In this document: in pieces, positions 3,827 to 64,000 of the stretch | How positions within the stretch are numbered: position 1 is the stretch's first letter | How the letters are laid out: each line of letters starts with the position of its first letter | Source: Octopus sinensis | Taxonomy: Eukaryota | Direction of reading: 5' to 3' | NCBI RefSeq assembly: GCF_006345805.1 | Contig: NC_043015.1 | Location: forward strand, 2,914,001 to 2,978,000 | DNA length: 64,000 bases | Notes under the pieces: model-generated | What the model was told of the DNA's origin: nothing | The model's database searches: none | What the model saw: only the letters and a program-made list of their open reading frames with translations | Translations under genes and position numbers: made by a program

Positions 3827-4237
3827 ACTCTTTACTCTTTACTCTTTTAATTGTTTCAGTCATTTGACTGCGGCCACGCTGGAATACCGCCTTTAGTCGA
3901 GCAAATCGACCCTAGGACTTATTCTTTGTTAGCCTAATACTTATTCTATCGGACCCTTTTGCCGAACCGCTAAGTGACGGGGACGTAAACACACCGGCAT
4001 CAGTTGTCAAGCAATGCTAGAGGGACAAACACAGACACACAAACACACACATACATATATATATACATATATACGACAGGCTTCTTTCAGTTTCCGTCTA
4101 CCAAATCCACTCACAAGGCATAGGGCCGGCCCGGGGCTATATCAGAAGACACTTGCCCAAGATGCCACGCAGTGGGACTGAACCCGGAACCATGCGGCTG
4201 GTTAGCAAGCTACTTACCACACAGCCACTCCTGCGCC
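3827..4237 (-). mobile_element. Full-length tRNA-derived SINE, family A (octopus-type, CORE-like box, internal (TA)/(TG) tract)
   Basis: Minus strand begins GGCGCAGGAGTGGCTGTGTGG (A box) ...GGTTCAGTCCC (B box) ...CTTGGGCAAGTGTCTT and ends in a (GTAAAAGA)n-like tail. Flanked by a 7-bp direct repeat TGTTGTT (3820-3826, 4238-4244). At least six other copies are in the window. Confidence 0.92.
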
Positions 4238-6433
4238 TGTTGTTTCCTTTTTTTCTGGACAACTTCATGCATTGGTGAACAACTAGTGGCGTTGGAGAAG
4301 ATGACGCGAAATGTTCCAGTTAAAAAAAAATTAAGCTGACATGGAAGAGAGGAAGTCAGCGGAATACTGGAAATGAGTTAGGTGTATCATAATGATTCGA
4401 GATTGGTCTAAAAATGCTGATATCATGACAGATGCTCCATGCCCTGTGAACACTGTAAAGTCTGTAAGACCTAACACGAACAAGTGTTAGGAAAGGAAGC
4501 CGTTGACAGTAGGAAGAGCCAAAGCAAGTGTTTAGGCACTCTCAATTATTCCGGAGAACGGAACCTTTCCCCGCATCTTTGAATAAGGCCTTCATTTCAA
4601 TTCAAAGCCGTTTTTATACTGTCGTTAATGCTTGCGCTTATTCCGTAATGTCAATGTTAACGATCTTTAAATTTTATTCATTTTATACCTTAGCCTCTTT
4701 TATAACATCAACATCAAATTGTAATTAAACCATTAATTGTCGTATGGGACGATCAAACTACAGTTTCATAAGTGTCAACGATTCATCTAATTCATTAAGA
4801 AAGAGTCACTGGCCCTAACGTAATTATGTAAATTAAACCGGTTATTTGGTTTGTTAATATACTTTAAATTTGATAAATACTCTTAGATATTTTCGTTGCA
4901 TGCTAGATCGGCAATCAAAAAATTTTTTCGCCAAAAAAGAAGGTAACAAATAAAAGACCTGTCTAACTTTCTTTCTAATTTTTTCTAATTATACTAGCTT
5001 TCTTTATATTACCTTCCGACGTGAACTTCTACTTCCGTAAATGTCCGTTTATCACATAAACGAACCTACTTCTCTTAGGCTTATTTATGTAATAAGTTTG
5101 TGCACGCAATAGATTAATATTAAATTCAATGTAGAGGAAAGCATGCTCCACATCTCTGGGCCGTCTTGACTCTATAGGGAAATTGATGGTGGCTACGTTG
5201 AGCAAACTGTTGTGTCCTGTTCGCCACAATCTAGTTGATAATTTGAGATGTTTCAAATATAATTTAACTTTTTGATATATAAGTGTATTTTCTTTACTTT
5301 TTGTACAACCTATCAATTTCCACCCGAATACCTTGTACAAGAATTCCTATATTGTAATTTCGACACTAAATTCCACACCTATCCAATTATTTAAGAATAC
5401 TTTTCATTCTCAAAATTTTCAGTGATATATAATTGTTGTATTTTTATATTTTAGTTTGAGACAACTCCTTTCAAAAAAAAAAAATCCCATATGGTTTCCA
5501 CTGAAATTCATATAACTTAAACAGTATTTCAGTTATTTAAATTTGTGAGAGAACTAGCTTATATTTGGATAGTCATATTCAAGATGTTTCGCAATGCAGA
5601 ATAAAAATCATCCTATTTACAGACATATCAACGTGTTCGTTGCCATAACCGTGCCATAACTAAATGCACAAACACAACTTCAAGAAGAGATTCATTTACA
5701 CATATACACATACATAAGAGAGTATTAATTACAAGCCATGAAACAGATCAACACATAATAATCTGCAGGAGTTGGTGCAACTATAGTTAGATTGTGTAAT
5801 AAGTTGGAGCATGGAAGAGTGTGCTATTTTTTCGAGCGTTATTATATATCGGAAAATGTACAAATCAATATTTGTTATCTTCTATGATGTAATTTTATTA
5901 GAACTGTTTGTAACATGCTCACATATTTATTCACCATTTTTGTCCCATAACCTCTTTATGCATTTACATTTGCAACGGGAATCACGAATATGGACTTTAG
6001 TGTCAGACACCTGCAGAAGACTGCAGAGATCAGAGACTCTATTCTACTAAGATTTTAGTGAATTAAAAAAAGCCTCGACAACTGAATAGAAAGAGAAAGT
6101 TTAGACAGTCGCCCTTCTCGCAAATGTTGAATCCTTTCTCTAATTAGACCCTATACAATATCACACCTGAATAGTAACGTTGCGTTTTCAGAATCTATTG
6201 CAGACAAGATGGCGGTAAATACACCAGTATGCTTTTGGCTGTTGGTTTTTATATACTTTGCACCATTGATTTTGCATGCATTTAAGAACTGAGATGAAGG
6301 CATTTCATACGCTGCGTTAGGGATGCTAACTATTTCATATGAATTATCTAAACTTTCGCACACACACTGTTGGAATCTTTGTCTGCGATGTATACTGTCT
6401 GCGTTTTTCTGCGTTGTATACTGTTGATTGTGA

Positions 6434-12027: not shown

Positions 12028-12673
12028 TATATTTCGTTTTGGTATTTGGTTTGCAAGATTCTTTATGTGAGTCGAGTGTTGGACCATATTCCGTTGTGCC
12101 TGAAGAGAGTCATTCTCTTGTAGTACCTTATAATTTAATACACTCCCAGGTAAACTTCCCATTCATTTACTTACATATTTTTCTAAAATCTTCGTTGCGT
12201 CTTGCAAACATTTTGCAAAGCCTTTTTTTGTGCGCATGCGTATGGGTCAGTGTGTGTACGCATACACATGTATGTATGTATGCATGCATCTAAGTGTATG
12301 TATCCATGTATGTATGTGCGTGTGCATGTATATATTTATGTATATTGCATATTCATGTGTTTGTGTGGTCGTGTCTGTTTTTATGTGAGTCTGTGTTTGC
12401 ATGTGTGGTTGAGTGTGTTGACTTCCATCTCCTTGTGTGCGCATCTCTCAGTGTGTCTGTTAGTGTGAATGGGCTTTTGTAACGATGCATTGTGTCTTTA
12501 TGTATGGATGTGTATCTCTATATATGTGGGCGTGTCTCCATATGTGTTTTTGCGTGAAGTGAAGTGGGTGTGTATAAGGTCATGTGTTTCACTCTGCATT
12601 ATTCTACGTTTATCTGTTAATACCACCTGTATGTCTATCTGTTTACTTTCATATCCATTTGCACTAACATATA

Positions 12674-12831
12674 GGCGTAGGAGTGGCTGTGTGGTACGTA
12701 GCTGCTTACCAACAGTGTTCTGGGTCCAGTCCCGCTGCGTGGCACCTTGGGCAAGTGTCTTCTACGATAGCCTCGGGCCGATCAAAATTTGTGAGTGGAT
12801 TTGGTAGACGGAAACTGAAACAAGCACGTTG

Positions 12832-12930
<99 letters not shown>

Positions 12931-12959
12931 TTATATATATAATATATATATATATATAT

Positions 12960-12997
<38 letters not shown>

Positions 12998-13240
12998 CGT
13001 GAGTGAATGTTTGTGTGTGTGCGCGTGTGTGCGTGTTTGTGTGCCTGTTTTTGTCTCCCTAACATCGCTTGACAACCAATTCTGGTGTGTTTACGTCCTG
13101 GTTACTTAACGGTTCGGAAATGGTGACCGATAAAATAAGTATTAGGCTTACAAAGAATAAGTCCTGGGGTCGATTTACTCGACTAAAGGCGGTGGTCCTG
13201 CATGGCCGCAGTCAAATGACTAAAACAAATAAAAGAGTAA
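12674..13240 (+). mobile_element. SINE family A with expanded internal (TA)n(TG)n tract
   Basis: GGCGTAGGAGTGGCTGTGTGG head, CCTTGGGCAAGTGTCTT box and 3' end GGCCGCAGTCAAATGACTAAAACAAATAAAAGAG. Confidence 0.9.
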
Positions 13241-15194
13241 CAGGGGAAAAGAGTATACACACGAACCCCTCCACATATATATATATACACATACATACAT
13301 TCATCTACATAACAGCTTACTTACCATACTACCTGAATAAAAATATAAGTATGATTATCTACTACGTATATTTCCTGTTTAGTATTTTGGATATGGTATG
13401 TTTTAACTGTTATCGTGTAATTGTTTCATTTATTAGAGTATGGCCATGCTGGTGCATTGTTTTGAAGAATGTTTAGCCGAATATACCAACCCCAAGCAAA
13501 AACCTGGTATTTATTATATCGGTGGATATAGCTGAAACGCGAAAACGCACCATAATCAGTCACCAAGCGAGCATTGGGTTGTAAGGCAATATTTACAAAA
13601 GCAAATGCATGTTATTATGTAATGAATGAATACATCAGTTACTTTATACCGAAAATCTTTCGCTAGATTTTAAACACCATTTGTATTTCGATTTTAAAAG
13701 CAAGTTACACTACGATGAACCTAGATTAAACCACAGAGTGGGATCTACGGTTTATGTTAGATTTGGTAGTATCATATCTGCAGTATCCTGCCAACATTTG
13801 ATACATTCATTACCATTTACATCACACTCAAATCTGTTATTGTACCTAGCGATTTATGGCGTGCTACGTGTTGTTGTGTCTAGGTTGTATTGGATCCTTA
13901 TAGGTAATTCATATCTATCTATCTGTTTATCTGTCAACATACATACACTTATATATATATATATACATAATAGTTTGGGTGTTGTATATGTTTGCTTGAA
14001 ATGATTGTGGTTATGTGAGACTGAGTGAATAGCTATGAAGTTATGTTGAATAAGTCACAGACAATCAACTAGGCGGCGTAAATCATTTTCCACCATTTTG
14101 AATTAATCATAAGTTTCCTTTTCACTGTCGCGACATCATGCTTCAAATACAGATAATTTTGCTCTGTATTCAACTCTTAATTTCAAAACGATTTTCTACA
14201 CACTTATTTAATCTCTACATCTAATTTTGCATTAGTAATATGCTAGTTCAGAGGCGTATGATTTCTAAATATTCATTTATTATTACATATATCAATACAC
14301 CAGTAACATTAGTTTATATGGACTTAGTGATATAATACGACTTAATAACAATGTAATATGATTAACAAATTTCCATACATGCATTTATTTGTGAGCATTA
14401 CTTATGAAGTGCAGTTGTTATTTATTTCCGGTAGATATGTCTTGAAGATACCCTGGAAATATATTAGCGAAACAATATTTATCTCATCTTGCATAATTTG
14501 TTTTATATCCGTATCAACACATTTCCTGCTTCAATAATATTGGTTTTTCAACATATTTAACACCACGATAAAGGTATTCGTGTGAACTGCACGCCTATAA
14601 CAGTTTTGTTATATTTTTATCTAAGCCTCTGATATTCAGAAGCATATTACATTATTTCTCAAGTTATATAATCAGTTTGAGAAGTTTATTTTATCACAGA
14701 ATACTGCTGAGAGGTATTGACATGTTGATTTAGGTAATATACGCTGATATCAAGACAATCAGAACGCATTCGCCGTTCGTTTATGTTAGGTGGGGATTTT
14801 TTCTATCAGGGTCTATAAAATATCTCTCAAACACAGAATTACCACAACTGAGTCAAAAGCACAAACGTATATGTCTTTTATACACATAAATATTTCCGCG
14901 TTTCAGTGATTGGACAGCGGTTGTCTTGAGGCATGTTACAGTAGAATTTTAGGCAGATTAGTCGACACCAGTACTTCAGTTTTAACGCTGGTAATTAATC
15001 AATAGATTGTTCGCCACATGGACAAATTAAGAGTTCGTAAACACACGAACATCGGTTGTGAGGCGGTGGCGCAGGAAGGAACAAAGGCACAAACACACAC
15101 ACGTACGCGCGCAGCGGCGCACGCTCATAAATACACGCATACACAAACGAACAATCACGCACAGACGTATACATACACACACACACAAACACAC

Positions 15195-21612: not shown

Positions 21613-22696
21613 TATTTACAAACTTGTTTGTCAATAAAATAACTGTTCTTGATAGATGTTTTTTTTAAATACTTTTTGTATAAATTTACTATCTTCTAAC
21701 ACCTGGATCCTTGTATCCTACCTTTACAAAGAATTATACAAGAACACACACACACACACACACACTTATATTTATATATACTAACAGAGACACGCATGTG
21801 CATCTTAACACCTTTTGTTCCGTTTCTACAAAATATTAACAATCGATAATTTTTGACGCTGAAGAAAGCTTTAACGTTCTTGTACGTAACAGCTAAATTC
21901 TATCACTCCCAGATTTACATAACTTTTGTTGCAGATGAAAATGTTTTGCGTAGTTGCAAATTTAATAGAAAAAATAAATCCCATTTGATTAGAGTGTGTC
22001 AATCAAATTAAGGAGAAAGAACACGCTTAGTAAATATTATTTGGCTCACTCTAGATGTCAATATTCTCATACTTCAACTTACTATTTGAAACTTAATGCA
22101 TATTTACTTATAATGTATACAATTTACGCGTGCTCTTTTTTTTTTACACGTTAACTGTTTTTAGGGGTTTTTTTGTTGCTTTTCTAAGAAAAGAAATTTG
22201 TACGTAGTACGAGTCTTTTTGTTTAGTACTTTATTGAATAACGTTTACACAAATATGAAATTAGATGTGTTGCATATAAGGATTATTACTTCATTGTCAA
22301 AATGTGCCGTTTGAATGTCGCAGACATTACAAGTGGCATTGTTTTTACAGAAGGTATTTTTTCTTTAGAAATGACAGATAATAATGATGGAGACGCATAC
22401 AAACACTCACACACATACTTCCTCATCCTCTGTCTGACTGTTGGTCTGTCTCTTTCACTCTCTATCTCTCTCTCGCTCTCTCACTCTTACACACACACAT
22501 CACACACGCACACACGCACGCACACACTAACGCACACGTATATTTATGCATATCCAGTGAAGATTTATTATGTTATTTTGTGGAGAATAGTGCACTGTAT
22601 AACCTGAAATCACATATACCTTTCTTTCGCTTTCACACTGTTGAAAACTCATTACCCTTCCTGACCCTAGTCATGTCAGGACATTACATATTTGCA

Positions 22697-22912
22697 TTAC
22701 TCTTTTACTCTTTTACTTGTCTCAGTCATTTGGCTGCGGCCATGCTGGAGCACAACCTTTAGTCCAGCAAATCGACCCCAGGACGTATTCCTTGTAAGCC
22801 TAGTACTTATTATATCAGTCTGTTTTGCTGAACTGCTAAGTTACGCGCTCTTAAACACACCAGCATCGGTTGTCAAGCGGTGTTGGGGGACACACACAAA
22901 CACACAAACATA
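22697..22912 (-). mobile_element. SINE family A, 3' half
   Basis: TACTCTTTTACTCTTTTACTTGTCTCAGTCATTTGGCTGCGGCCATGCTGGAGCAC matches the 3' end of the other copies. Confidence 0.85.
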
Positions 22913-23475
22913 TACGTATTTCTGACCACCTTCAATTGCGTTACACATTTGGCAACATGCCAAATATCCTATCGTTAAAATGATCAAATGCCCTATTCAG
23001 TCGCCACTTCTAATGCTTTGGTCAGTGCCTTAGTGTATGAACCTGCAGGCATGTGTACTCGAATGTATATATGTGTATTTGTGTGTGTATGTGTGTGAGT
23101 GTGTGTATGCTACAATGAAAAGTGTATAAATATACACGTGAAAGAATTATTGCAACGTATCATCACTTAGTGGTTTTTCAACAATAGTGATTTAGTTAAA
23201 AGCGATTTTATGCCACATAATAAAATAGAAATATCAGAAATTAAATTAAAGTGACTTCAAGCGCTAAAACCTTGTATTGATTAATATATCAACATTTTAT
23301 GCTAATATTTAATGAGAAAATATATATATAGAACATATTTCACGACTGACTTTTGTTTTTATAATAAAAAAAATTAATAGGAAGCAGAATTTATAACGTT
23401 AAAATGAATGGGTATAGCTATTTCAGTCAATAAGAGAGTCTGATTTTCAAATGGAAATGTTGAATATGCTTTGTC

Positions 23476-24039: not shown

Positions 24040-24420
24040 CATATGATAATCGATGCAGCATATCTCGGTGATAAAAAGTACAATGTGAAAGAAGAAGAAA
24101 AAATAATCAACTATGACGATTTGAAGTGGGAAATACGAAGGATGTGGTGAATGAAGAGAGTAGACGTGACACCAATAGTAATTGGTGCACTTGGAAGTAT
24201 GAGCAGTCGACTACCGAAAGGTTTGTTGCAATTTGGAAGCAAGAACACCTGGTAAATCAATATTGATTGGAACAGCAATATTTCTTCACAGTGTTCTTCA
24301 AGTATGTCGAGTAAACAATTGTCACCGTAATCTACTGGGTACATACAAGTGGTGATTTCCATCATTCTCAGCAACGTACACTATACGTTTCCGTAAAATA
24401 AGGACAAAATGATTATAATA
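24040..24420 (+). mobile_element. R4/Dong-clade non-LTR retrotransposon 3' remnant (restriction-like endonuclease region)
   Basis: Translates as IIDAAYLGDKKYNVKEEEKIINYDDLKWEIRRMW*MKRVDVTPIVIGALGSMS, the D...E..K..Y..L...W....VVPIVIGALG signature of REL-endonuclease LINEs, with an in-frame stop. Confidence 0.8.
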
Positions 24421-27400: not shown

Positions 27401-27960
27401 GCGTTTTGCAACCACACTGGAATGAGGAAGATAACATCTTCATTTGAACTTAATATAAAATATCAATGAGTATAATATATAAAATGAAGGAGTCCTAAAG
27501 TGAAAGAGACGTTGTATGCAGATGATATTGAAATGATGGATATCTTTACACACGAGACATCTAAATTGATAACACAAATGTCTCCATGAATTAAGTAATT
27601 GCACGATCGTGTTTTCTCAAGAAGCGTACTGAAATAAAATTGCTGTCAATTAATTTATACAATCACGTTCCTTAACAGGTTAAGCATATGTATATGAACG
27701 AAGTATGCACTCATGCCATATAGCTCATTTAGCAAAATATTTGTTCCCTCTATGATTATGTTCTTAATACAATACTTCTCGAAAAATTACCCCTTCTTTA
27801 CTTTTGCTGCTTCCAGTTCGGCGTCTTGATACCAATTACTTGATAGCAGCTAATATTTAGCATTGGTGTTTTATAGATTATATTCGAAGCTGTTTGCTAT
27901 TATCCGGAATACTACTTAAGGGAGATCCCTACCAAATAAGCAGGACATCTCTACACACAT

Positions 27961-28361
27961 ACTCTTCACTTGTTTCAGTCATTTGACTGCGGCCATGCTG
28001 GAGCACAGCCTTTAGTCGAGAAAATCGACCCCGGGACTTATTCTTTGTAAGCCCAGTACTTATTTTATCGGTCTCTTTTGCCGAACCGCTAAGTGACGGG
28101 GACGTAAACACACTAGCATCGGTTGTCAAGCAATGCTAGGGGGACAAACACAGACACACAGACATATACACACACTTATATATATATATACATATATACG
28201 ACAGGCTTCTTTCAGTTTCCGTCTACCAAATCCACTCACAAGGCATTGGTCGGCCCGGGACTATAGCAAAAGACACTTGCCCAAGATGCCACGCAGTGGG
28301 ACTGAACCTGGAACCATGTGGTTGGTTAGCAAGCTACTTACCACACAGCCACTCCTGCGCC
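27961..28361 (-). mobile_element. Full-length SINE family A
   Basis: Highly similar to 3827-4237 over head, body and tail. Confidence 0.92.
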
Positions 28362-28830
28362 TATATATAACAACCGATACTCTTCGGCTTTCAAGGTATA
28401 TCATATATGTAGAGAACTGTGTTCTGTCATCCATCGGGTAAATATATGTTATGAAATCGAGGATTCTATGGATAAAATGTTTTGAGTAATAATATTTAAG
28501 CTTCACAAGGAATATAAAATGATGTAAAAGAAGATAAAGATGCGTATGAGGAAATTTACCATTGCTCAATATAAATGAGTAATAAATATTTAATCAACAG
28601 AATGATTTCAAATAACTGTCTATAAAGGATAATCTAATCAAAACTTGAATTGCAAATAGTTTCCTTCTAACTTAACGAACAATTCCACATCATAAAACGG
28701 AGAGTAGATAAACGAAAAACTTTAAATAGTTAAATCGAAGGATATTCAAGTGAAGACCCGGGTTTGAAATTACAATAGTCACTAATCGATGCAGTAAAAC
28801 CATGTATAAGTCTATTTGGGAATGTATATA

Positions 28831-29389: not shown

Positions 29390-30285
29390 ATTATTATCAT
29401 TATTATTATTTTATTTTTTCTCAAACGTTTTCTTTGAACACCTGAAATCTTGTATGCGTTACACGGTACCAAGCTATCCTTTCTTTTCATATAATACTTC
29501 CCTGATTATTGTGGCCGTGTCAAGGTGGCAAAACTTTTGTAACAGTTCTACTGCGCACTTTGTTCCAATTTCCTTTATATACTTTTTGATGTCTTCTGAG
29601 ACTGTCCCCAATCACCAATAATTGGCACTATTTTCAACATCTTCATTTTCCATAGCCGGCCTATTTCATACTGCAGAGGGTTGCATTTATCTATTTTCGC
29701 CTTCTTTCTTTCCTAATTGTGGGCCAAATTGTCATGCAACTATATTCCATGTGGTTCTAGTCTGTAATACTCTAGCACCTGATCTGTTGGGATTGGGATA
29801 TCCTGGATGAATTTGCTAGTTCCCGACTCAGCCAATATCTGTGATTTGTGCTCATATCACGTCTTCCCTTTGTCTAGCCTACACTTTTCTGAGTCTCCAA
29901 TGTAACATTTTCGCTACCTGATATTTTCGCTAAAACTTATAGTAGTTGTTTTCGGCAACTATAGGGCTGTTTGTTCCTGATATACGCAATGGTTTCATTC
30001 ATTATATTACAAATGCCTCAGAAAGGAGGCCCATCCTCATTCCTAAATTTGCCTCCCCCTACCAGTTGGTGGTTAAAGCTCGGTTTCAACTGCTAGTATA
30101 ATGCTCTCGCCGTCTCTTTGTTTTAGTGTCCCTTTCTTCAGCGAATCCCGCCTATAATTTTCAGCAACTTCTGTTGTGGCTACCTGGAATTGATTGTGTA
30201 CGTCTTTCTTGAGTAATTCATCTTTATGTCCTTTTTGTACTTCGTCCTTTGTTCGACAGTTATTTCTCTCCTTACTCCCGCATTC
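29390..30285 (-). mobile_element. R4/Dong-clade LINE 3' remnant with (TAA)n tail
   Basis: Minus-strand decayed peptides KKDVHNQFQ..., KKGTLK.../ESIILA..., and LWKMKMLKIVPIIG. The 3' end runs into a (TTA)n-like tract at ~29390-29412. Confidence 0.72.
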
Positions 30286-30301
30286 CTATATATATATATA
30301 T

Positions 30302-30705
30302 AGCATTAATAAATCTCCGAACGAGATGTAAACAGTAACTGCTCGACAACTTAAAGTGTACTAGCCATCTGAATGTGGCTAACCACTGGGGGTTGGTGTT
30401 ACTGACGCTTTTAGCCCCAGGAGATCGTCGTCTCCAGCTGGCTTTACACACAATTTCAGTGCCCTTCTGATATTTGCAAAGAGCGGTCATCCCCTCTCGG
30501 AAACCTAAGTGATACATACGGACTATAGTTTCGAGGTTTTTGCCTCTCGTCAACGTATGGTAAACACCGGTTTTCGATAAAGGAGACCTGTTTGCAAAAT
30601 CTATTTAATGTCTAAACTCTCTGAAAGCATTAATAAATCTCCGAACGAGATGTAAACAGTAACCGCTCGACAACGTAAAGTGTACTAGCCATCTGAATGT
30701 GGCTA
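30302..30705 (-). mobile_element. Retrozyme-like / Penelope-pLTR-like element: 324-nt unit plus 80-nt terminal redundancy, inserted in (TA)n
   Basis: 30302-30381 and 30626-30705 are direct repeats with 2 mismatches in 80. One hammerhead lies inside, there is no credible ORF, and (TA)n flanks both sides. Confidence 0.8.
30515..30559 (-). ncRNA. Type I minimal hammerhead ribozyme
   Basis: Minus strand reads CATACG-TTGACGA-GAGG-caaaaa-CCTC-GAAA-CTATAG-TC-CGTATG. Helix I is 6 bp, helix II is 4 bp, helix III is the palindrome ACTATAGT, and the triplet is GUC (predicted cut between 30521 and 30520). The only core deviation is C3U. Confidence 0.85.
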
Positions 30706-30707
30706 CG

Positions 30708-30754
<47 letters not shown>

Positions 30755-35651: not shown

Positions 35652-36035
35652 GGAGTGGCTGTGTGGTAAGTAGCCTGCTAACCAACCACATGGTTCGGGG
35701 TTCAGTCCCACTGCGTGGCATCTTGAGCAAGTGTCTTCTGCTATAGCCCCGGGCCGACCAATGCCTTGTGAGTGAATTTGGTAGACGGAAACTGAAAGAA
35801 GCCTGTCGTATATATGTATATATATATATGTGTGTGTTTGTCCCCCTAGCATTGCTTGACAACCGATGCTGGTGTGTTTACGTCCCCGTCACTTAGTGGT
35901 TAGGCAAAAGAGACCGATAGAATAAGTACTGGGCATACAAAGAATAAATCCCGGGGTCGATTTGCTCGACTAAAGGCGGTGCTCCAGCATGGCCGCAGTC
36001 AAATGACTGAAACAAGTAAAAGAGTAAAAGAGTAA
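35652..36035 (+). mobile_element. Near full-length SINE family A
   Basis: GGAGTGGCTGTGTGGTAAG...AAACAAGTAAAAGAGTAAAAGAG. The first few bases of the head are missing. Confidence 0.92.
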
Positions 36036-45907: not shown

Positions 45908-46529
45908 TATATATATATATAATGTGTGCATTATGTGGTCGCTTGAGCTGAAAATATGCAGACCTATGTTAAAAGTGCTGGCAAGTTTGCATGACAACTA
46001 TTTTTTTCCTCAAATGAAAGGACAAAATCCTCTAGGACAAAACTCCTCATCTTATAAATGTGGCCCCAGTACACCCGAATGAAATCGGGGTATATTAACC
46101 AAAATGTCAAAAGGGGTCTAAATGGGGCTGGAAGGGGATTAAATTTTAAAGGAGCGGGTGTTTAGGAATTCTCTGTTACATCAAGCTAGAAAATTTGCGC
46201 CAGCCTTTTAACCCTTTCGTTACTATATTTCTGACCAAAATACACCTTATGTGTTTCAATTAATTTCTAACATAATCATAAACATAGTCTGGTTTCATTA
46301 AACAACTATAACTTTTTTATTTATCAATATATTTATGTAATATTTGGAAGATAATTTAATGAAATGTTCTCAACAAATCCTATACTATAATTTTTGTCAC
46401 AAAGTTACTCTAATTGCAGGTAGATACAGGTAAATTCAACAAAATATAAAATTATTAAAATTTCTGTTCAAACATCGCTATAGAAAATGGGTTATTAGCT
46501 AATATTCAATTGGGTATACAACAAAATTT

Positions 46530-47376
46530 GGCACTGTCATGCTATTAGCTGTCAGAAGTGGAAGTACGTCAACTTCGTGTATTTACGTCAGGTTTTATAC
46601 CTTCGTTAATTTACGCCGTTTATTTACGTACCAGCACGCTGTTAGGTTTATAAAACAATTGAAGTTCAGTTTAAAGTTTATAAATAAATACATTTCATTC
46701 CATGTTCTGTTTAAACTTTATAAATAAATATATTTTGCATTATTCATTATTGTTTATAAAAAAGAAATCACACCAAATCTGCACAAATATATATACATGT
46801 GTATACATTACACATGTATATATATATATATATATACACATGTATATATATATATATGTATACACATGTATATATACATATGTATGTTTATATATATATA
46901 TATATATATATAGTTAAACTATTGACCGCCTAAAAACGGATTTCAACAGACAAATATTACTATAAATGATAATATAAGCATATAACTACTTATACACACA
47001 TACAATAAATACAGACACACACACATTAGTCAGACATATAGCCACATATACACACATACACACGTGTGTATGATCGGTGTATGTGATCGCGGTTGTGGTG
47101 GTGGGTTGGTGGTGGTGATTTGTTCAGATTTGGTGTGATTTCTTTTTTTAAAAACAATAATGAATAATGCAAGAATATATTTATTTATAAAGTTTAAACA
47201 GAACATGGAATGAAATGTATTTATTTATAAACTGAAACTGAACTTCAATTGTTTTATAAACCTAACAGCGTGGTGGTACGTAAATAAACTGCGTAAATTA
47301 ACGAAGGTATAAACTCGACGTAAATACACGAAGTTGAGATACTTTCACTTCTGACAGCTAATAGCATGACAGTGCC
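46530..47376. mobile_element. MITE with ~260-bp TIRs and an 8-bp TSD (Merlin- or Mutator-like)
   Basis: TIRs 46530-46788 / 47118-47376 (GGCACTGTCATGCTATTAGCTGTCAGAAGTG ... CACTTCTGACAGCTAATAGCATGACAGTGCC). Perfect TSD CAAAATTT at 46522-46529 and 47377-47384. Confidence 0.93.
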
Positions 47377-47384
47377 CAAAATTT

Positions 47385-47868
47385 CATTATAGAATTTGTT
47401 ATTCTGGGTAACTTTCTGATACCCATAATAATATTTATGGCAAAATAAGCCTTAATTTCATTTAAGGTTGTGGGAAACCAAAGTATCCTTTCTTTCGCTT
47501 TGTTTACATTTAACGTAACGGTCGTTTCCGCTGTAATGATTTCAAATAGGCTCATTCGAAAAAGTAAAAAGAAATAGTCTAAGGCTTTACTCTCCTGGGA
47601 AAGATGGTGGCTTGGTCCAGTTTCTCAGAAAAATCACTGAAAGAAATAGTTTTTAAATTTTCACTCCATTCAGGTGCCAATTCATTTTCTTTATTGCTGT
47701 CGGAACTCTCGGATTCTCTGTTTCATTTTCGGAAAATGATACATGGGATTCATTATCAAATACCACGTGCTTTTTTTTTTCAGTCATAGAGTTAGATTTA
47801 TCAAGGTCTTCAGTAGAAAAGCCTTCGAAATCTGACTCGCTGCTTGATATAATGAAATTCGTAACCAT
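47385..47868 (-). pseudogene. piggyBac transposase N-terminal fragment (frameshifted)
   Basis: Acidic N-terminus MVTNFIISSSESDFEGFSTEDLD, then DYFFLLF and LFEIITAET...WFPTTLNEIKAYFAINIIMGIRKLP, the W..TT..EIKA.F.I.I.MGI.KLP motif of PGBD/DDE_Tnp_1_7 proteins. Confidence 0.85.
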
Positions 47869-48567
47869 TTTTTGTCAGAATTACAAATAGGAACAAATTT
47901 CGGAAAAAAATCTCCCAAAATTCACGGAATTAAAATTACACTTCGATCGTTGTACAACAAATGTACTAAAGAGATTTGCTCTGATATTCTCATTTAAATA
48001 TGAATAGGTAAATACGGGCGGGTTTGGTCGGTTTGGTCACATAAACCTAATTTTTTTTCGGGCGTTGCCGTCCATGATGAAGAAGTTTTGAATGATTGCA
48101 ATGGTGAGTCTACTGTCGCTAGAAAGAATCACTTCAAAACTTGGTGTTTACGAATTTTCTGTTACATCAAGTTCATAATTTTACGCCAGTCATTAAACTG
48201 TTGCTGTCCGTCGTTAAGAAATGCCAGCCATGGTAACTCTACTATCCTCAGATTCTATCCCTTCAATCTTTGGTTTCCAATATTTTATTATTTTTATTCA
48301 GCTCGCATGTTCGTCTGTCCCTTTTAAATATTAGCGTTTTGCTGTCTGCCTTGAAGCAGACCTGTCCGTTGCCACTGCCTGATATTTATGATTGATCTTT
48401 CTAAATATTTTATTTCTCAACTTACTCAAGATCTTTTCTTGTTTATAAATGGGAGAGAGATAGATAAAGATAGAGAGTAAGAGAAAGCGAGGGAGAGTCC
48501 TAGAGAAAAGAAAAGTAAGAAAGTGGGGAAAGTGAGAGAGAAAGGAGAGAGAAACAAAGAGGGAGAA

Positions 48568-50125: not shown

Positions 50126-50262
50126 ATTTGTTTATATATATATATATATATGTATGCATGTATGTATATATGTGTGTGTATCCCGATCCATTTCAAGTTA
50201 TATATTTGTGTATACACACACACACACATATATATACGTATATATATATATACGTATACATA

Positions 50263-50426
50263 GGCGTATGAATGGCTGTGTGGTAAGTAGATTGCTAACC
50301 AACCACATGGTTCCGGGTTCAGTTCCACTGCGTGGCACCTTGGGCATGTGTCTTCTGCTATAACCCCGGGCCGACCAATGCCTTGTGAGGGATTTGGTAG
50401 ACGGAAACTGAAAGAAGCCTGTCGTA

Positions 50427-50466
<40 letters not shown>

Positions 50467-50664
50467 TGTGTGTGCGTGTTTGTGTGTCTGTGTTTGGCCC
50501 CCTAGCATTGCTTGACAACCGTCACATAGCGGTTCGGCAAAAGAGACCGATAGAATAAGTACTGGGCTTACAAAGCATAAGTCCCGGGGTCGATTTGCTC
50601 GACTAAAGGCGGTGCTCCGGCATGGCAGCAGTGAAATGACTGAAACAAGTAAAAGAGTAAAAGA
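50263..50664 (+). mobile_element. SINE family A with a small internal deletion
   Basis: GGCGTATGAATGGCTGTGTGG head through the AAACAAGTAAAAGAGTAAAAGA tail. Confidence 0.9.
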
Positions 50665-51501
50665 ATATACACATATAATTGTTTGTGTGATAAACAGAAA
50701 ATATAGTCTCAGTCATTAAATGGATGCAATCATCCATCCACAGAAATTACTAATCTTCGAAAGATTAATGAGTTTTTATCACCTCAGGTAATATTTTAAA
50801 AAATATGATTAACGGAATAATTATTTCTCCGTATTACAGTCATACCTTTTTCAGTTGATTGTGCAGCGTATTTGCGTATGTCTCAGTAAAATTGCAGTTA
50901 ATTATTCAGTTGCGCTCACACATATTCAAACATATATTTCTTTTTCAGTGAGAAAATTTGGGGGAATGAGAACAAGTGGAAATAAATTTGAGAAAGTAAG
51001 AAATTTTCATTTCTGTTAATAGAAATTTCATATAACATAGTTATGTCATTGATCATGTGGTGAATCTAATGAGCACGTTCTTTTTAATTCATGCATATTA
51101 CCTACGCCACTAATTATTTCAATTCATTTACAGTAGGTTATAATCCCTTGGCTAGTAGATGTAACGCAGCATATTTCCCACCTATTGACTTACTAACATT
51201 TCTTCACGCCGCTCCATTTATCTTCAAAGAGTAGTTTCTTCATTTTCCGTTATTTTTGTATAGCGTTACACTGCTGAGATTATCTAATCTTCTCACATGT
51301 GCTGTTTTGCATTTATGGAGCCTATGTTTATTATAATATGTCTATAATGTATGTTGCATAGGAATCGATATGCATGTGGTTGTTTATATGTGTTCCATAA
51401 AGAACATAGGGCATTTAATTCAATCATTTATGCATCGGGAGAAAGTTTAGACGTTGCACCAATACCATAATTTGAAACCAATGTTTCTCTAAAGAAAAAT
51501 C

Positions 51502-59249: not shown

Positions 59250-60160
59250 TATTGACGAGTGGTTGACCCACAGGCCTCTGCATCGTCAATATATACTTCG
59301 AAGCCGAAATACTTCTGTAGACCAAGGAACAGACCTTTCAGTTGCGTTGAAGCTTAGGACTGAAACCGAAGGCTGAATGTTTAATATTGGCAGCATAAGA
59401 TCAAAGGTTCCTTAACAAATCTATCAGGATAATTTTCTTGGAAACGCTGCTGACCTTAAATGCATTTTCTGCGACAAATGTACTGAAACAATCTGGTCCC
59501 GGGATGACATTTCCTCACACCAAACGGATTAGAAAATCGGACAGTATACAAATTGGAAAATATGTAGACATTACAAAATCAGCATCCATGCTTGCTGGTA
59601 TAAGCATCAACCTAAGCAAGCTTTTGAAAGTAATAATGTCATAATGCACTGGGATTTTCCAGTCAAATCTCATAGAAGGATCTGAGATAATCGACCAGAA
59701 ATAATTATTAAAAACGGGAAATACTTATAGATGCAAGAGTTCACACTGATAAAAATATACCTGTTAAGGAATTTGACAAATCAAATAAATATAAGAACCT
59801 GAGAATTGACGTAAAAAAGATGTGGCATCTTAATGCGAAAACTGTCCCTATTATTATGGGTGCCCAAGCTATGATAAGAAAGGGATTTCAGAAATATCTA
59901 TACGATATCCCAGGAGAACCATGCCTCAGAAATATCATAAAGATTGTGCTGACAACTACTGCCCACATCCTTAGAAAACCCTATCAATTTGAATGTCTGT
60001 GTTGTATTACATGAAGATATTTCGCAACTGCTCCTGCACCGTCCCGTACCCAAACACCCAGTCAAACTGTCACAACTCTTAACTTTCACGCGCCATAGGA
60101 TGCTGGGTGAGTCTCGGCAAGTTTGAATAATAATAATAATAATAATAAAATAATAATAAT
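59250..60160 (+). mobile_element. R4/Dong-clade LINE 3' remnant with (TAA)n tail
   Basis: Decayed peptides LGLKPKAECLILAA*DQ and KYKNLRIDVKKMWHLNAKTVPIIMGA...KIVLTTTAHILRK. Ends in (TAA)n at ~60126-60160. Confidence 0.82.
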
Positions 60161-61622: not shown

Positions 61623-63570
61623 ATATATATCAGTGATATCCGATTCAATACAACATGGTCAGAGAAAGAACGAGTAAACAATCCTCACATAGATGGATCA
61701 TTGTTGTTAAAGCCAGGAAATAAACATCTTGGGTCCGTATCACTGTAAAGCTAAAAATCATACAGTCAACAGGCATATTTTTAGATATTAGGGGTGAATT
61801 CTTCTCTCCCTGCACAGAAAAGCAATATTACACAATCTGGAAATCCAGAGACGGACCACCACACTCTCAGGATAAATGGAGTATATACAACACCGTATAC
61901 CCACATACAGAGGTAACATTGCTCCTGATGAACTCTTTCAGCTTACAAACACACGAACATCACATATGCCCGGAATATAATATGATATAATGCAAACAAA
62001 TTCACCGTCCAACACATTTTCTGAGTACCGAAACACCAGGGCGATAACCGCAAAAGGTGTCATCCATGTTTAATGTCTCTTGATTTATTGTTTTCTTTAC
62101 AACACATGTTCTGAACTCCCAGGATATTTTGAGCTTTCATCGAAAAGGGAGACGGCCACCGTTGCTTCTTATAATCGGTTCGAAAATTGTTAAGATATAA
62201 ATATATATTTACATGAAACCAATCGTAGACTTAATACACAAACAAAGAAACTTTCCACACCAATCCGGTATTAAGCACTTATTTTCCTTGTTCGACATTT
62301 ACGTTTACATGTGCACGTGTGCGTGTTTGTGTATGCATGTATGTGTGTGTGTGTTTGTGTGCGTGTGTTTGTATGTGTGTTTGTGTGCGTATGTGTGTTT
62401 TTCTGTCTAGGTTAAAAATGGTGTACAAATTTTATATATGAAGAAAAAAAATTTACATTCCGCGTGATGTTATCCACATATTCCAAGACATATATGTATA
62501 TACGCGTGAATTATTTGAAAAAAATCCGGAATTGAAAATGTTTTCTTGAGGTTTAGAAAGAGGTGGCTTATGCAAATATGATAGCAAATTCGGAGCATTG
62601 CGTAAATATATGTGTCCATGTATTTGCCTGAAAGCATGTACGCGTGGTAAAGTTCAGAAAAAAAAGGAAACGAAAGAAAGACAGAAAAATAACAGAGATA
62701 AGGAGAGCGAGAATGACAGAAAGTCTGCAAGATAGGTAGAGAGCAACAATGAAAGAAAGAATGGAAGAAACAAAGAAAGAAAGAAGAAAGTCAGAAAGAA
62801 AGAATAAAGAACAAAATAAAGAAACGAAGAAATAAAGATGTGTTTTTTCATAGATTGTAGAAATTGATGATAGGCCATGGAGACCAACAGTCTTAAGAAT
62901 TACAATTAATTGTATTAAGTTATTGTAGAACCACTTCTTTCATCGTGTTAAGTGTCATATTGCCCTGCGTGCGTATATTCTGTCTTCACTCTTTTTTCTT
63001 TTCTCTAGACGTTATCCTTCCCCTTTTCCGCCTTCATTTCGTCCCCTATTTTTTCTCTATTCTCTCCTTTTGGCCGTGTTTCCCTTTCTCCATTACCTGT
63101 TATTGATACGTGACCTGCTTTTCTTCTTTCACCCCATATATTCAACCGATCGGGGGCCCAATATTTCTGTCTTGCTATTTCCATAAGCGTTACACACCAT
63201 TATTCTCTTTTGCGCCCGAAGGCCGTATTCCACTCTTTTCTATTTATTCCTTCCTTGTCCATCGTCTTCAATTACATTTTTCTGTTATTATCGTATGTCC
63301 CCCCTGTATTGTTTTGTTTTCTTGAGGCACAACAATATCTGCAGCTTTCGCAAGCACCACCAATATGGGACATTCTCATTGTTATCATTAATGGTGCGAA
63401 ACTGACTATTACCACTTTGGTTGATAACTGATAAAGATTTCATACATACATACACACTCACACACATATATATATGTGTGTGTGTTTATGTATGTATATA
63501 TATATATATGTGTGTGTGTGTATATGTTTATGTATATATATATATATATATGTGTGTGTGTTTATGTATG

Positions 63571-63605
<35 letters not shown>

Positions 63606-63633
63606 ATATGTTTATGTATATATATATATAAAT

Positions 63634-63772
63634 ATACCAAATCAATTCACAAGGCTTTGGTCTTCTCGAGGCTATAGCAGAAGACACTTGCCAATGATGC
63701 CACACATTGGGAATGAACCCGGAACCATGTGGTTCATAAGCAAGCTACTTACCACACAGCCACTCTTACGTC
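63634..63772 (-). mobile_element. SINE family A, 5' half
   Basis: GAACCCGGAACCATGTGGTTCATAAGCAAGCTACTTACCACACAGCCACTC is the reverse complement of the tRNA-like head. Confidence 0.85.
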
Positions 63773-64000
63773 AAAATATTTCATTTTAGCATATGTACAA
63801 TATATTCGAGCAGCAAAATTCTTATTTGTAATATTATAACTTTGGAAATATTTATTGATTTCTACAGTTTAGTTCCCTACGCTTGTATATTGGTAATCCT
63901 GAATGTATGAGAATTTATAATTTACATTCCTTATGACGTTATCCACATATTCCAAGACATAAATCTAAAAGAAATTCCTTTGCAGCGAATGTGAAATTAA

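What the first reader, a model, noticed from the sequence alone, without database searches (positions are those of the whole stretch)
30302..30705. Retrozyme-like unit: 324-nt structured monomer, near-canonical hammerhead and 80-nt terminal redundancy
Seen: (i) 80-bp direct repeats with 2 mismatches that define a 324-nt period, so the insert is ~1.25 units; (ii) a minus-strand type I HHR at 30515-30559 with perfect helices I and II, palindromic helix III (ACTATAGT) and a GUC site; (iii) helix I continues as an interrupted long stem (TCGGAAACC/GGTTTTCGA, GGTC/GACC, TTTGCAAA/TTTGCAAA spanning 30473-30598), with further hairpins (TAGCCA/TGGCTA, CTGGGG/CCCCAG, GGAGA/TCTCC); (iv) no ORF, and insertion in (TA)n. 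Established: metazoan non-LTR retrozymes are few-hundred-nt HHR-bearing repeats that yield circular RNAs, and Penelope-like elements carry minimal HHRs with palindromic helix III thought to act as dimers. Inference: this is a retrocopy of a small self-cleaving, probably circular, RNA reverse-transcribed slightly more than once around, i.e. a cephalopod retrozyme family that I do not recognise as described.
Basis: partly seen in the sequence, partly recalled or inferred. Interest (0 to 1): 0.85.

Follow-up and report, generated by a model that had tools for sequence, protein, structure and literature searches.

The report
Hammerhead-bearing Penelope-type mini-retroelement (retrozyme-like)
A 404-base non-coding insert carrying a self-cutting hammerhead RNA motif is one copy of a many-copy parasitic repeat that lands in TA microsatellites, a kind already known from many animals; cutting and RNA circles are untested here.

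Summary
The 80-nt repeats match at 78 of 80 (period 324). A minus-strand type I hammerhead lies at 30515-30559 (Rfam HH9, E 1.6e-8, below the gathering score), inside a long stem, in (TA)n.

Contigs of four public runs (three organism labels) show a dispersed many-copy family, so a single-copy duplication is refuted. Variation respects the fold: helix III occurs as three different self-complementary 8-mers, as expected of dimer cleavage.

- The core is U3·G8, not C3-G8, and C3 stays under 5% in the three DNA-type runs, so activity is uncertain.
- This locus has one ribozyme and cannot release a circle in cis.
- Insert ends are not at the cleavage site.
- Copies share a 3' end beside (TA)n, as Penelope-like elements do, rather than being freely permuted.

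Best reading: a non-autonomous Penelope-type element (non-LTR retrozyme), copied 1.25 times from a circle or an uncut multimer. Unit closure is shown at this locus only; attachment to a Penelope ORF elsewhere is not excluded. The host is not identified by any search. A new member of a known kind.

The parts
30302..30705 (-). Whole insert, 404 nt = one 324-nt period plus an 80-nt partial copy at the sense 5' side (partial tandem)
   Evidence: single copy in the 64-kb window; many-copy family in public runs
30626..30705 (-). Upstream (5'-truncated) copy of the last 80 nt of the unit
   Evidence: 78 of 80 identical to 30302-30381
30302..30381 (-). Sense 3'-terminal 80 nt; its end at 30302 is the end shared by other copies (inferred reverse-transcription start)
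   Evidence: records 1, 9, 10 run from the TA tract into the element with 7-17 other letters; 17 contigs in X1 have unlike AT-rich loose ends before 30625
30515..30559 (-). Type I hammerhead: helix I 30559-30554 with 30520-30515; core 30553-30547 with U3 and G8; helix II 30546-30533; GAAA 30532-30529
30522..30529 (-). Palindromic helix III (8 nt); three self-complementary versions in the family
   Evidence: tables 3 and 7; duplex energies
30520..30521 (-). Predicted cleavage site after C17 (30521); 185 nt from the sense 5' end, 219 nt from the sense 3' end
   Evidence: hammerhead numbering on the sequence; distances; cleavage not tested
30469..30601 (-). Interrupted long stem extending helix I, with an internal loop (30564-30560 opposite 30514-30512) of the HH9/Schistosoma type
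   Evidence: loop contact nucleotides compared with PMC2632901
30602..30625 (-). Linker that closes the period at this locus; its last 12 nt (30614-30625) also adjoin the repeat in three divergent contigs
   Evidence: table 8, records 8, 15, 16; closure across the whole linker not shown in other copies
30313..30327 (-). 5-bp hairpin 11 nt before the sense 3' end
   Evidence: P 0.9; the common variant 30318 lies in its loop
30361..30382 (-). Hairpin within the repeat
   Evidence: P 0.91; variants 30371, 30373, 30375 in the loop; 30382 (98-100%) turns a U·G pair into C-G; 30381 (X10 only) breaks a pair
30420..30435 (-). Hairpin GGAGA/TCTCC
   Evidence: P 0.92; variants 30425, 30427, 30428 all in the loop
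30287..30302 (.). (TA)8 target tract at the sense 3' junction
30706..30750 (.). Three extra letters, then (TA)21 at the sense 5' junction; no target-site duplication can be told

Best explanation
The insert is a young genomic copy of a short non-autonomous Penelope-type retroelement, the kind called non-LTR retrozyme in animals. Shown: a many-copy, non-coding unit with a conserved minus-strand hammerhead fold, a shared sense 3' end in (TA)n, and a 5'-truncated partial copy in front of a whole period. Inferred: tandem source loci are transcribed into multimers. Neighbouring hammerheads pair through the palindromic helix III and cut, and monomers may be closed by a host ligase into circles of about 0.3 kb. 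A Penelope RT/GIY-YIG protein nicks TA-rich DNA and starts reverse transcription inside the RNA, at a fixed site 219 nt downstream of the cut site. It copies across the cut site through one period plus 80 nt and drops off. The template was a ligated circle or an uncut multimer (about even odds), not a cut linear monomer. This locus has one ribozyme and is probably a dead-end copy.
For: Many copies: 1460, 1490, 562 and 65 contigs laid in X1, X5, X7, X10, mostly under 95% alike. Canonical-size type I fold with Rfam HH9 match. Loop 2 reads CAAAAA here (the HH9 consensus) and CAAAUA in 65-86% of depth in the three DNA-type runs, the Schistosoma loop (PMC2632901). Linked double change 30525+30526 keeps the palindrome (equal depth and equal contig counts in 4 of 4 runs); a third version, seen in 4 contigs of X5 and 3 of X7, self-pairs on the minus strand only (-9.8 versus -4.8 kcal/mol). 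The double-hammerhead core is 13 kcal/mol below two monomer cores. 20 of 34 variant positions are unpaired where 114 of 324 positions are, p 0.003. The cut site is internal to the insert. Both repeats carry the minority letter at 30318/30642, as expected of one template lineage. Partial tandems, AT-rich targets and internal fixed RT starts downstream of the hammerhead are PLE traits. Size and 43.5% G+C fit retrozymes.
Against: Closure of the unit is shown at this locus only. Only one hammerhead lies here; the 2026 preprint counts as active only repeats with two. The core has U3·G8, and C3 is under 5% in X1, X5 and X7 (read from the change counts); U3-A8 makes up 5-27%. The monomer's active fold has probability 3e-7 in the nearest-neighbour model, which ignores tertiary contacts. 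Of 36 variant rows, 7 break a predicted pair against 8 that keep one. In the anole PLE, hammerhead cleavage was not needed for insertion and uncut RNA was the main template; 8 of 9 Xenopus retrozyme dimers did not cleave. No autonomous partner has been seen.
Confidence: 0.65

Rival explanations
1. The insert is the doubly 5'-truncated end of an autonomous Penelope-like element: an 80-nt copy in front of a roughly 300-nt copy of the pLTR region, with the ORF present in longer copies elsewhere.
For: Shared 3' end, partial tandem and (TA)n target are what PLEs leave. The 12 nt shared past the main end could be a PLE 'tail'. A related subfamily keeps the hammerhead but has a different outer stem (loose ends before 30528). 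RNA-guess record 14 (94% alike) goes on for 53 unplaced letters past 30595.
Against: The hammerhead has canonical dimensions and contact loops, not the minimal PLE form (helix II 7-8 bp, extra base before helix II, no helix III). The long stem is closed within the period. No RT or GIY-YIG match among the 140 frames scanned in the window. In X1, X5 and X7 the share that runs on into unlike sequence is 0-0.01, though most pieces are short.
Confidence: 0.2
2. A linear SINE-like element with fixed ends (like the Schistosoma Sm-alpha kind), moved by a LINE such as the restriction-like-endonuclease elements seen in this window; the 80-nt repeat is a one-off template jump or second priming.
For: Three remnants of RLE-type non-LTR elements lie in the window, one ending about 400 nt from the insert on the same strand. 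A second, different junction was seen in one X7 contig (30448 to 30674).
Against: No tRNA head, no A or B box match, no poly(A) signal on the sense strand. No similarity between the insert and the rest of the window, RLE remnants included. The neighbour is old and broken while the insert is young. Selection on a dimer helix needs tandem transcripts. The 12 nt past the 3' end recur in divergent copies.
Confidence: 0.1
3. A single-copy local duplication with a chance hammerhead look-alike.
For: Only one copy in 64 kb; Rfam score below the gathering threshold.
Against: Hundreds to over a thousand divergent contigs per DNA-type run and structure-preserving variation; compact descriptor 0 of 60 shuffles.
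Confidence: 0.01

Closest known systems
Metazoan non-LTR retrozymes (Cervera and de la Pena 2020, PMC7229834; mussel repeats of 350-390 bp, about 5000 hammerheads)
   Same: Non-coding unit of a few hundred bases, G+C under 50%, canonical-size type I hammerhead with 2-bp helix III and tetraloop, highly self-paired, many copies, no LTR
   Different: One hammerhead at this locus, not a dimer or multimer; core U3·G8; keeps the loop-loop contact bases that the mussel motif is said to lack; cleavage and circles untested
Non-LTR retrozymes as PLE derivatives (Li, Clavereau and Pollet 2026, bioRxiv 10.64898/2026.07.22.740005)
   Same: Dispersed monomers are common offspring; unit length near the reported averages (313-363 bp in several classes); proposed mobilisation by PLEs
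   Different: No mollusc among the classes sampled (31 vertebrates, 3 insects, 1 coral); homology to a PLE pLTR could not be tested here
Penelope-like elements and their non-autonomous forms (PMC4209133; PMC8557442, with MRC1; anole PAc, PMC11167929)
   Same: 5'-truncated copy in front of a whole copy, AT-rich or microsatellite target, shared 3' end downstream of the hammerhead, U3-A8 core variant known from Schistosoma PLEs
   Different: No RT/GIY-YIG ORF at this locus; hammerhead is canonical in size, not minimal; 3' end lies 219 nt from the cut site against about 85-92 nt in PAc
Hammerhead HH9 (Rfam RF02275) and the Schistosoma mansoni type I hammerhead
   Same: 6-bp helix I, internal loop ending UAC opposite a U, 4-bp helix II with C...A hexaloop
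   Different: U at position 3; helix III too short to form in a monomer; score 37.5 against gathering 52

Membership tests
Metazoan non-LTR retrozyme | Type I hammerhead of canonical dimensions | tested here: met
   with the U3 deviation in the core
Metazoan non-LTR retrozyme | Non-coding unit of about 150-450 bp, G+C under 50% | tested here: met
   324 nt, 43.5% G+C; the one long frame is broken by a majority variant
Metazoan non-LTR retrozyme | Many genomic copies | tested here: met
   1460, 1490 and 562 contigs in three DNA-type runs
Metazoan non-LTR retrozyme | Head-to-tail dimers or multimers with two or more hammerheads somewhere in the family | tested here: inconclusive
   1.25 units and one hammerhead here; short contigs neither show nor exclude arrays; no genome held
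Metazoan non-LTR retrozyme | Stable, highly self-paired predicted circle | tested here: met
   65% paired, -88.4 kcal/mol, 0 of 100 shuffles as stable; the linear fold is similar, so this does not show circularity
Metazoan non-LTR retrozyme | Self-cleavage of the transcript | not testable with these tools
   needs an in vitro assay; U3·G8 makes the outcome uncertain
Metazoan non-LTR retrozyme | Accumulation as circular RNA in tissue | not testable with these tools
   only contigs were available; they cannot show ends, strand or level of an RNA
Autonomous Penelope-like element | ORF with telomerase-like RT and GIY-YIG endonuclease | tested here: not met
   no such Pfam match in the 140 longest of 234 low-complexity-free frames of the window; applies to this locus, other copies not seen
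Autonomous Penelope-like element | Partial tandem (pLTR) with a hammerhead in the repeated region | tested here: inconclusive
   partial tandem present, but the 80-nt upstream copy stops short of the hammerhead
Autonomous Penelope-like element | Insertion in AT-rich DNA or microsatellites with a shared 3' end | tested here: met
   (TA)n on both sides; other copies start in TA or AT-rich flanks at the same end
Autonomous Penelope-like element | Minimal hammerhead form (helix II 7-8 bp, extra base before helix II, no helix III) | tested here: not met
   helix II 4 bp, no extra base, 8-nt helix III; some PLEs carry less atypical forms
Autonomous Penelope-like element | Homology of the unit to a PLE pLTR of the same genome | not testable with these tools
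   no genome and no repeat library on hand

The most novel reading that the evidence does not exclude
A young, very abundant retrozyme family in a lineage where none is described (cephalopod, if my recalled impression of the host is right), whose normal ribozyme core is a U3·G8 wobble. It would be a damped or protein-assisted dimer ribozyme that cuts multimers but spares circles, with subfamily-specific helix III palindromes that favour pairing within a subfamily, and with one subfamily supplying most of the RNA.
Probability: 0.15. Interest if true: 0.65.

Novelty: new member of a known kind. Interest (0 to 1): 0.35.

Why it matters
If confirmed, it adds a retrozyme family in a group for which the searched library shows none. 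It also gives a clean natural record of how such elements insert: fixed internal start, more-than-unit copy, TA target. That bears on the open question of whether Penelope proteins copy circles or uncut multimers. The family offers a ready test set, since three helix III palindromes and two cores (U3·G8, U3-A8) occur naturally. Otherwise it is one more parasitic repeat of a kind known from corals, mussels, insects and amphibians.

Tried and rejected

Pattern scans found nothing: 0 matches in metagenome contigs and 0 in viral contigs. No look-alike among earlier scan windows and no notes for this genome.

No RNA holder listed among the 24 runs; this is no evidence on expression. 20 of 24 rows hold part of the stretch (5 organism labels, 10 studies); I laid 4 of them and draw nothing from the rest. 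X5 holds the left flank and TA junction with no other letter (record 17) and may be the source of the window, so it is not independent.

Thin cover at 30592-30623: 0.2-4% of the hammerhead depth in X1, X5, X7, and 3% and 30% in the two bins in X10. No listed record bridges the linker with 31 letters on both sides, but 3567 pieces and 342 loose ends were not shown, and both arms of the long stem are thinly covered. I therefore use this neither for nor against closure.

Idea that the linker is an extra short copy of the 3' end: 570 of 2000 shuffles scored as well, rejected.

Idea that the 324-nt circle (a multiple of 3, one stop in one frame) codes for a protein: no Pfam match, 27 of 36 variants non-synonymous, and a majority variant makes a stop, rejected.

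Idea that the insert is the 5' ribozyme of the neighbouring RLE element: a TA tract separates them, the neighbour is truncated and decayed, and other copies have unrelated flanks; rejected. A word-based homolog search with that remnant found nothing; the full HMMER search gave one hit.

The CTGGGG/CCCCAG pairing is not in the predicted folds, and the helices that close the circle (30399-30409 with 30302-30312, P 0.5-0.6) are broken by common variants.

A motif search to name the host's SINE found no paper. Lunse et al. 2017 on PLE hammerhead variants is not held and may already cover U3·G8; the supplement of PMC7229834 could not be read and may list cephalopod examples.

Full report
Observation. 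The insert spans 30302-30705 between (TA)8 and, after three extra letters, (TA)21. Its first and last 80 nt match at 78 of 80 positions with a spacing of 324. No second copy lies in the window. On the minus strand a type I hammerhead runs from 30559 to 30515. It was the only hit of my descriptor on both strands; a relaxed descriptor hit 3 of 60 shuffled windows and a compact one 0 of 60. Rfam listed no hammerhead in a 2-kb scan but matched HH9 at 37.5 bits, E 1.6e-8, below the gathering score of 52, when given 151 nt. Helix I continues as a long interrupted stem to 30469/30601, with 40 of 44 pairs Watson-Crick, 3 G·U on the minus strand and 1 mismatch. The period folds better than 100 of 100 shuffles as a circle and than 98 of 100 as a linear minus strand, so folding does not argue for a circle.

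The ribozyme. Its dimensions are the canonical metazoan ones described in PMC4209133 (6-bp helix I, 4-bp helix II, short palindromic helix III), not the minimal PLE form. The contact bases match those described for the Schistosoma hammerhead in PMC2632901: a U just 3' of helix I, UAC on the other side, and a hexaloop ending in A. One core position deviates: position 3 is U opposite G8. C3-G8 is a Watson-Crick pair in the active core, and U3-A8 is a known active covariant. I found no report on a natural U3·G8 family in three searches, but the most relevant paper is not held. The predicted cut after 30521 lies 185 nt from the sense 5' end and 219 nt from the 3' end. The insert therefore crosses the cut site, cannot be a copy of a cut linear monomer, and holds only one ribozyme.

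The family. No genome is held, so I used public runs. I laid 4 of the 24 runs on 30240-30712 at 85% likeness: 1460, 1490, 562 and 65 contigs were laid in X1, X5, X7 and X10, under three organism labels. Most are under 95% alike. Summed depth over the ribozyme in X5 is about 3200 times that of the contig holding this locus's flank. The tool warns that this is no copy number, and overlapping contigs overcount; hundreds to thousands of copies is my rough inference. X5 may be the window's own source.

Variation follows the minus-strand fold. Of 34 variant positions shown within the period, 20 are unpaired where 114 of 324 positions are (p 0.003; four rows were not shown by the tool, four more lie in the second repeat and were left out). 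Of the paired rows 8 keep the pair and 7 break it, three of the seven in the 30347-30395 region and two in the weak circle-closing helix. In helix III, positions 30525 and 30526 change together (0.1%, 22-23%, 36-38%, 93% of depth; equal contig counts in all four runs), turning ACUAUAGU into ACUGCAGU. Loose ends in 4 contigs of X5 and 3 of X7 give ACCUGGGU. All three form 8-bp self-duplexes, the third only on the minus strand. The central pair cannot form within one molecule, so this is the signature expected of dimer cleavage, though two events alone are modest evidence. G8 changes to A in 5-27% of depth. C3 is not among the listed changes, and the change counts leave no room for it at 5% or more in X1, X5 or X7; only copies at least 85% alike are counted.

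Ends. Other copies begin at the same place: records 1, 9 and 10 run from the TA tract into the element with 7-17 other letters, and 17 contigs in X1 have unlike, AT-rich loose ends before 30625. A few copies stop elsewhere (30307, 30348). Three divergent records (8, 15, 16) carry 12 more letters, to 30614, so the template seems to continue past that end as it does here. None is shown to cross the whole linker. The two 80-nt copies share a minority letter (30318/30642) and each has one letter of its own, which fits one template lineage and a recent insertion.

Mechanism. A truncated copy in front of a whole one, microsatellite targets and a short optional tail are PLE traits. The anole PLE protein nicks AT-rich DNA and starts reverse transcription inside its RNA, downstream of the hammerhead; cleavage was protein-assisted and not needed for insertion. 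Circles as templates for more-than-unit copies were proposed in PMC4209133 and circular retrozyme RNAs were shown in coral, mussel and axolotl. I infer that a PLE protein copied a circle or an uncut multimer from a fixed internal start through 1.25 periods. The double-hammerhead core is 13 kcal/mol below two monomer cores and 4 below the monomer misfold. Transcription, cutting, ligation and the partner element are all inferred.

Rivals. A doubly truncated end of an autonomous PLE remains possible (0.2). No RT or GIY-YIG match was found among the 140 longest of 234 low-complexity-free frames in the window, but other copies could not be followed outward. A LINE-driven SINE-like element is less likely (0.1): no tRNA head or promoter boxes. 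The left neighbour is a decayed non-LTR remnant: P0001 matches 29614-29892 (minus) at E 1e-8, and its long relatives carry RVT_1, a zinc knuckle and an RxPD-D motif; the label R4/Dong is my recall. It shows no similarity to the insert.

Comparison and novelty. It works like a non-LTR retrozyme, and five defining features were met or not contradicted by sequence; arrays, cleavage and circles are open. A 2026 preprint reports that such elements derive from PLE pLTRs and often occur as dispersed monomers. Three searches listed no paper on a cephalopod retrozyme. The giant squid genome paper counts 235 Hammerhead_1 matches. The main text of the Octopus vulgaris repeat paper never mentions ribozymes, though its unclassified families may hold this one. 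No call names the host; the octopus impression rests on my recall of the SINE-like repeat and the microsatellite density.

Papers seen. Long parts: 10.64898/2026.07.22.740005 (parts 1-3 of 5), PMC4209133 (1-2 of 4), PMC11167929 (1-2 of 4), PMC7229834 (parts 2 and 4 of 6, section 14, passages; supplement unreadable), PMC13282606 (part 1 of 3, passages). Passages only: 10.1101/2021.04.23.441226, PMC8557442, PMC2632901, PMC3088659, PMC6155905, PMC6765202, PMC3884650, PMC7151607, PMC6962438. Lunse et al. 2017: title in a reference list only.

Verdict. Real, well-formed and many-copy; a new member of a known kind, with an unusual core as its one point of specialist interest. Interest 0.35.

Noticed in passing
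window 29470-30286, minus: Decayed 3' part of a restriction-like-endonuclease non-LTR retrotransposon (match 29614-29892; wider extent read by eye; R4/Dong label recalled), ending in a TAA-rich tract and abutting the TA tract of the insert.
   Followed up: partly
window 59269-59978 (+) and 24043-24243 (+): Two more remnants of the same kind of element (tblastn E down to 6e-17), each near trinucleotide arrays.
   Followed up: no
window 46524-47890: A piggyBac-like DDE_Tnp_1_7 match at 47361-47624 (minus; E 3e-6) beside a 94%-alike inverted pair, 46524-46788 and 47118-47384.
   Followed up: no
window 3832-4238, 12669-13243, 22688-22919, 27960-28369, 35652-36035, 50255-50668, 63452-63779: A roughly 400-nt interspersed SINE-like repeat, 78-91% alike between copies; it resembles octopus SINEs by my recall, not confirmed.
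   Followed up: partly
run X10 laid on window 30240-30712: X10 (RNA by guess only) shows the second helix III version in 93% of depth against 22-38% in X5 and X7 and 0.1% in X1, from 2 contigs. Its other variants resemble X5 and X7 more than X1 despite sharing X1's organism label. A possible hint of one expressed subfamily, not shown.
   Followed up: partly
runs X5 and X7, loose ends before window 30528: A subfamily or sister family with the same hammerhead, the third helix III version and a different outer stem; a candidate for the autonomous partner's pLTR.
   Followed up: no
run X7, joint window 30448 to 30674: One contig shows a different head-to-tail junction, so partial tandems of other geometry may exist.
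   Followed up: no
run X10 record 16: A 320-nt contig, close to one period in length, of which only 79 nt fit the repeat at 89%; could be a divergent whole unit. Its letters were not available.
   Followed up: no
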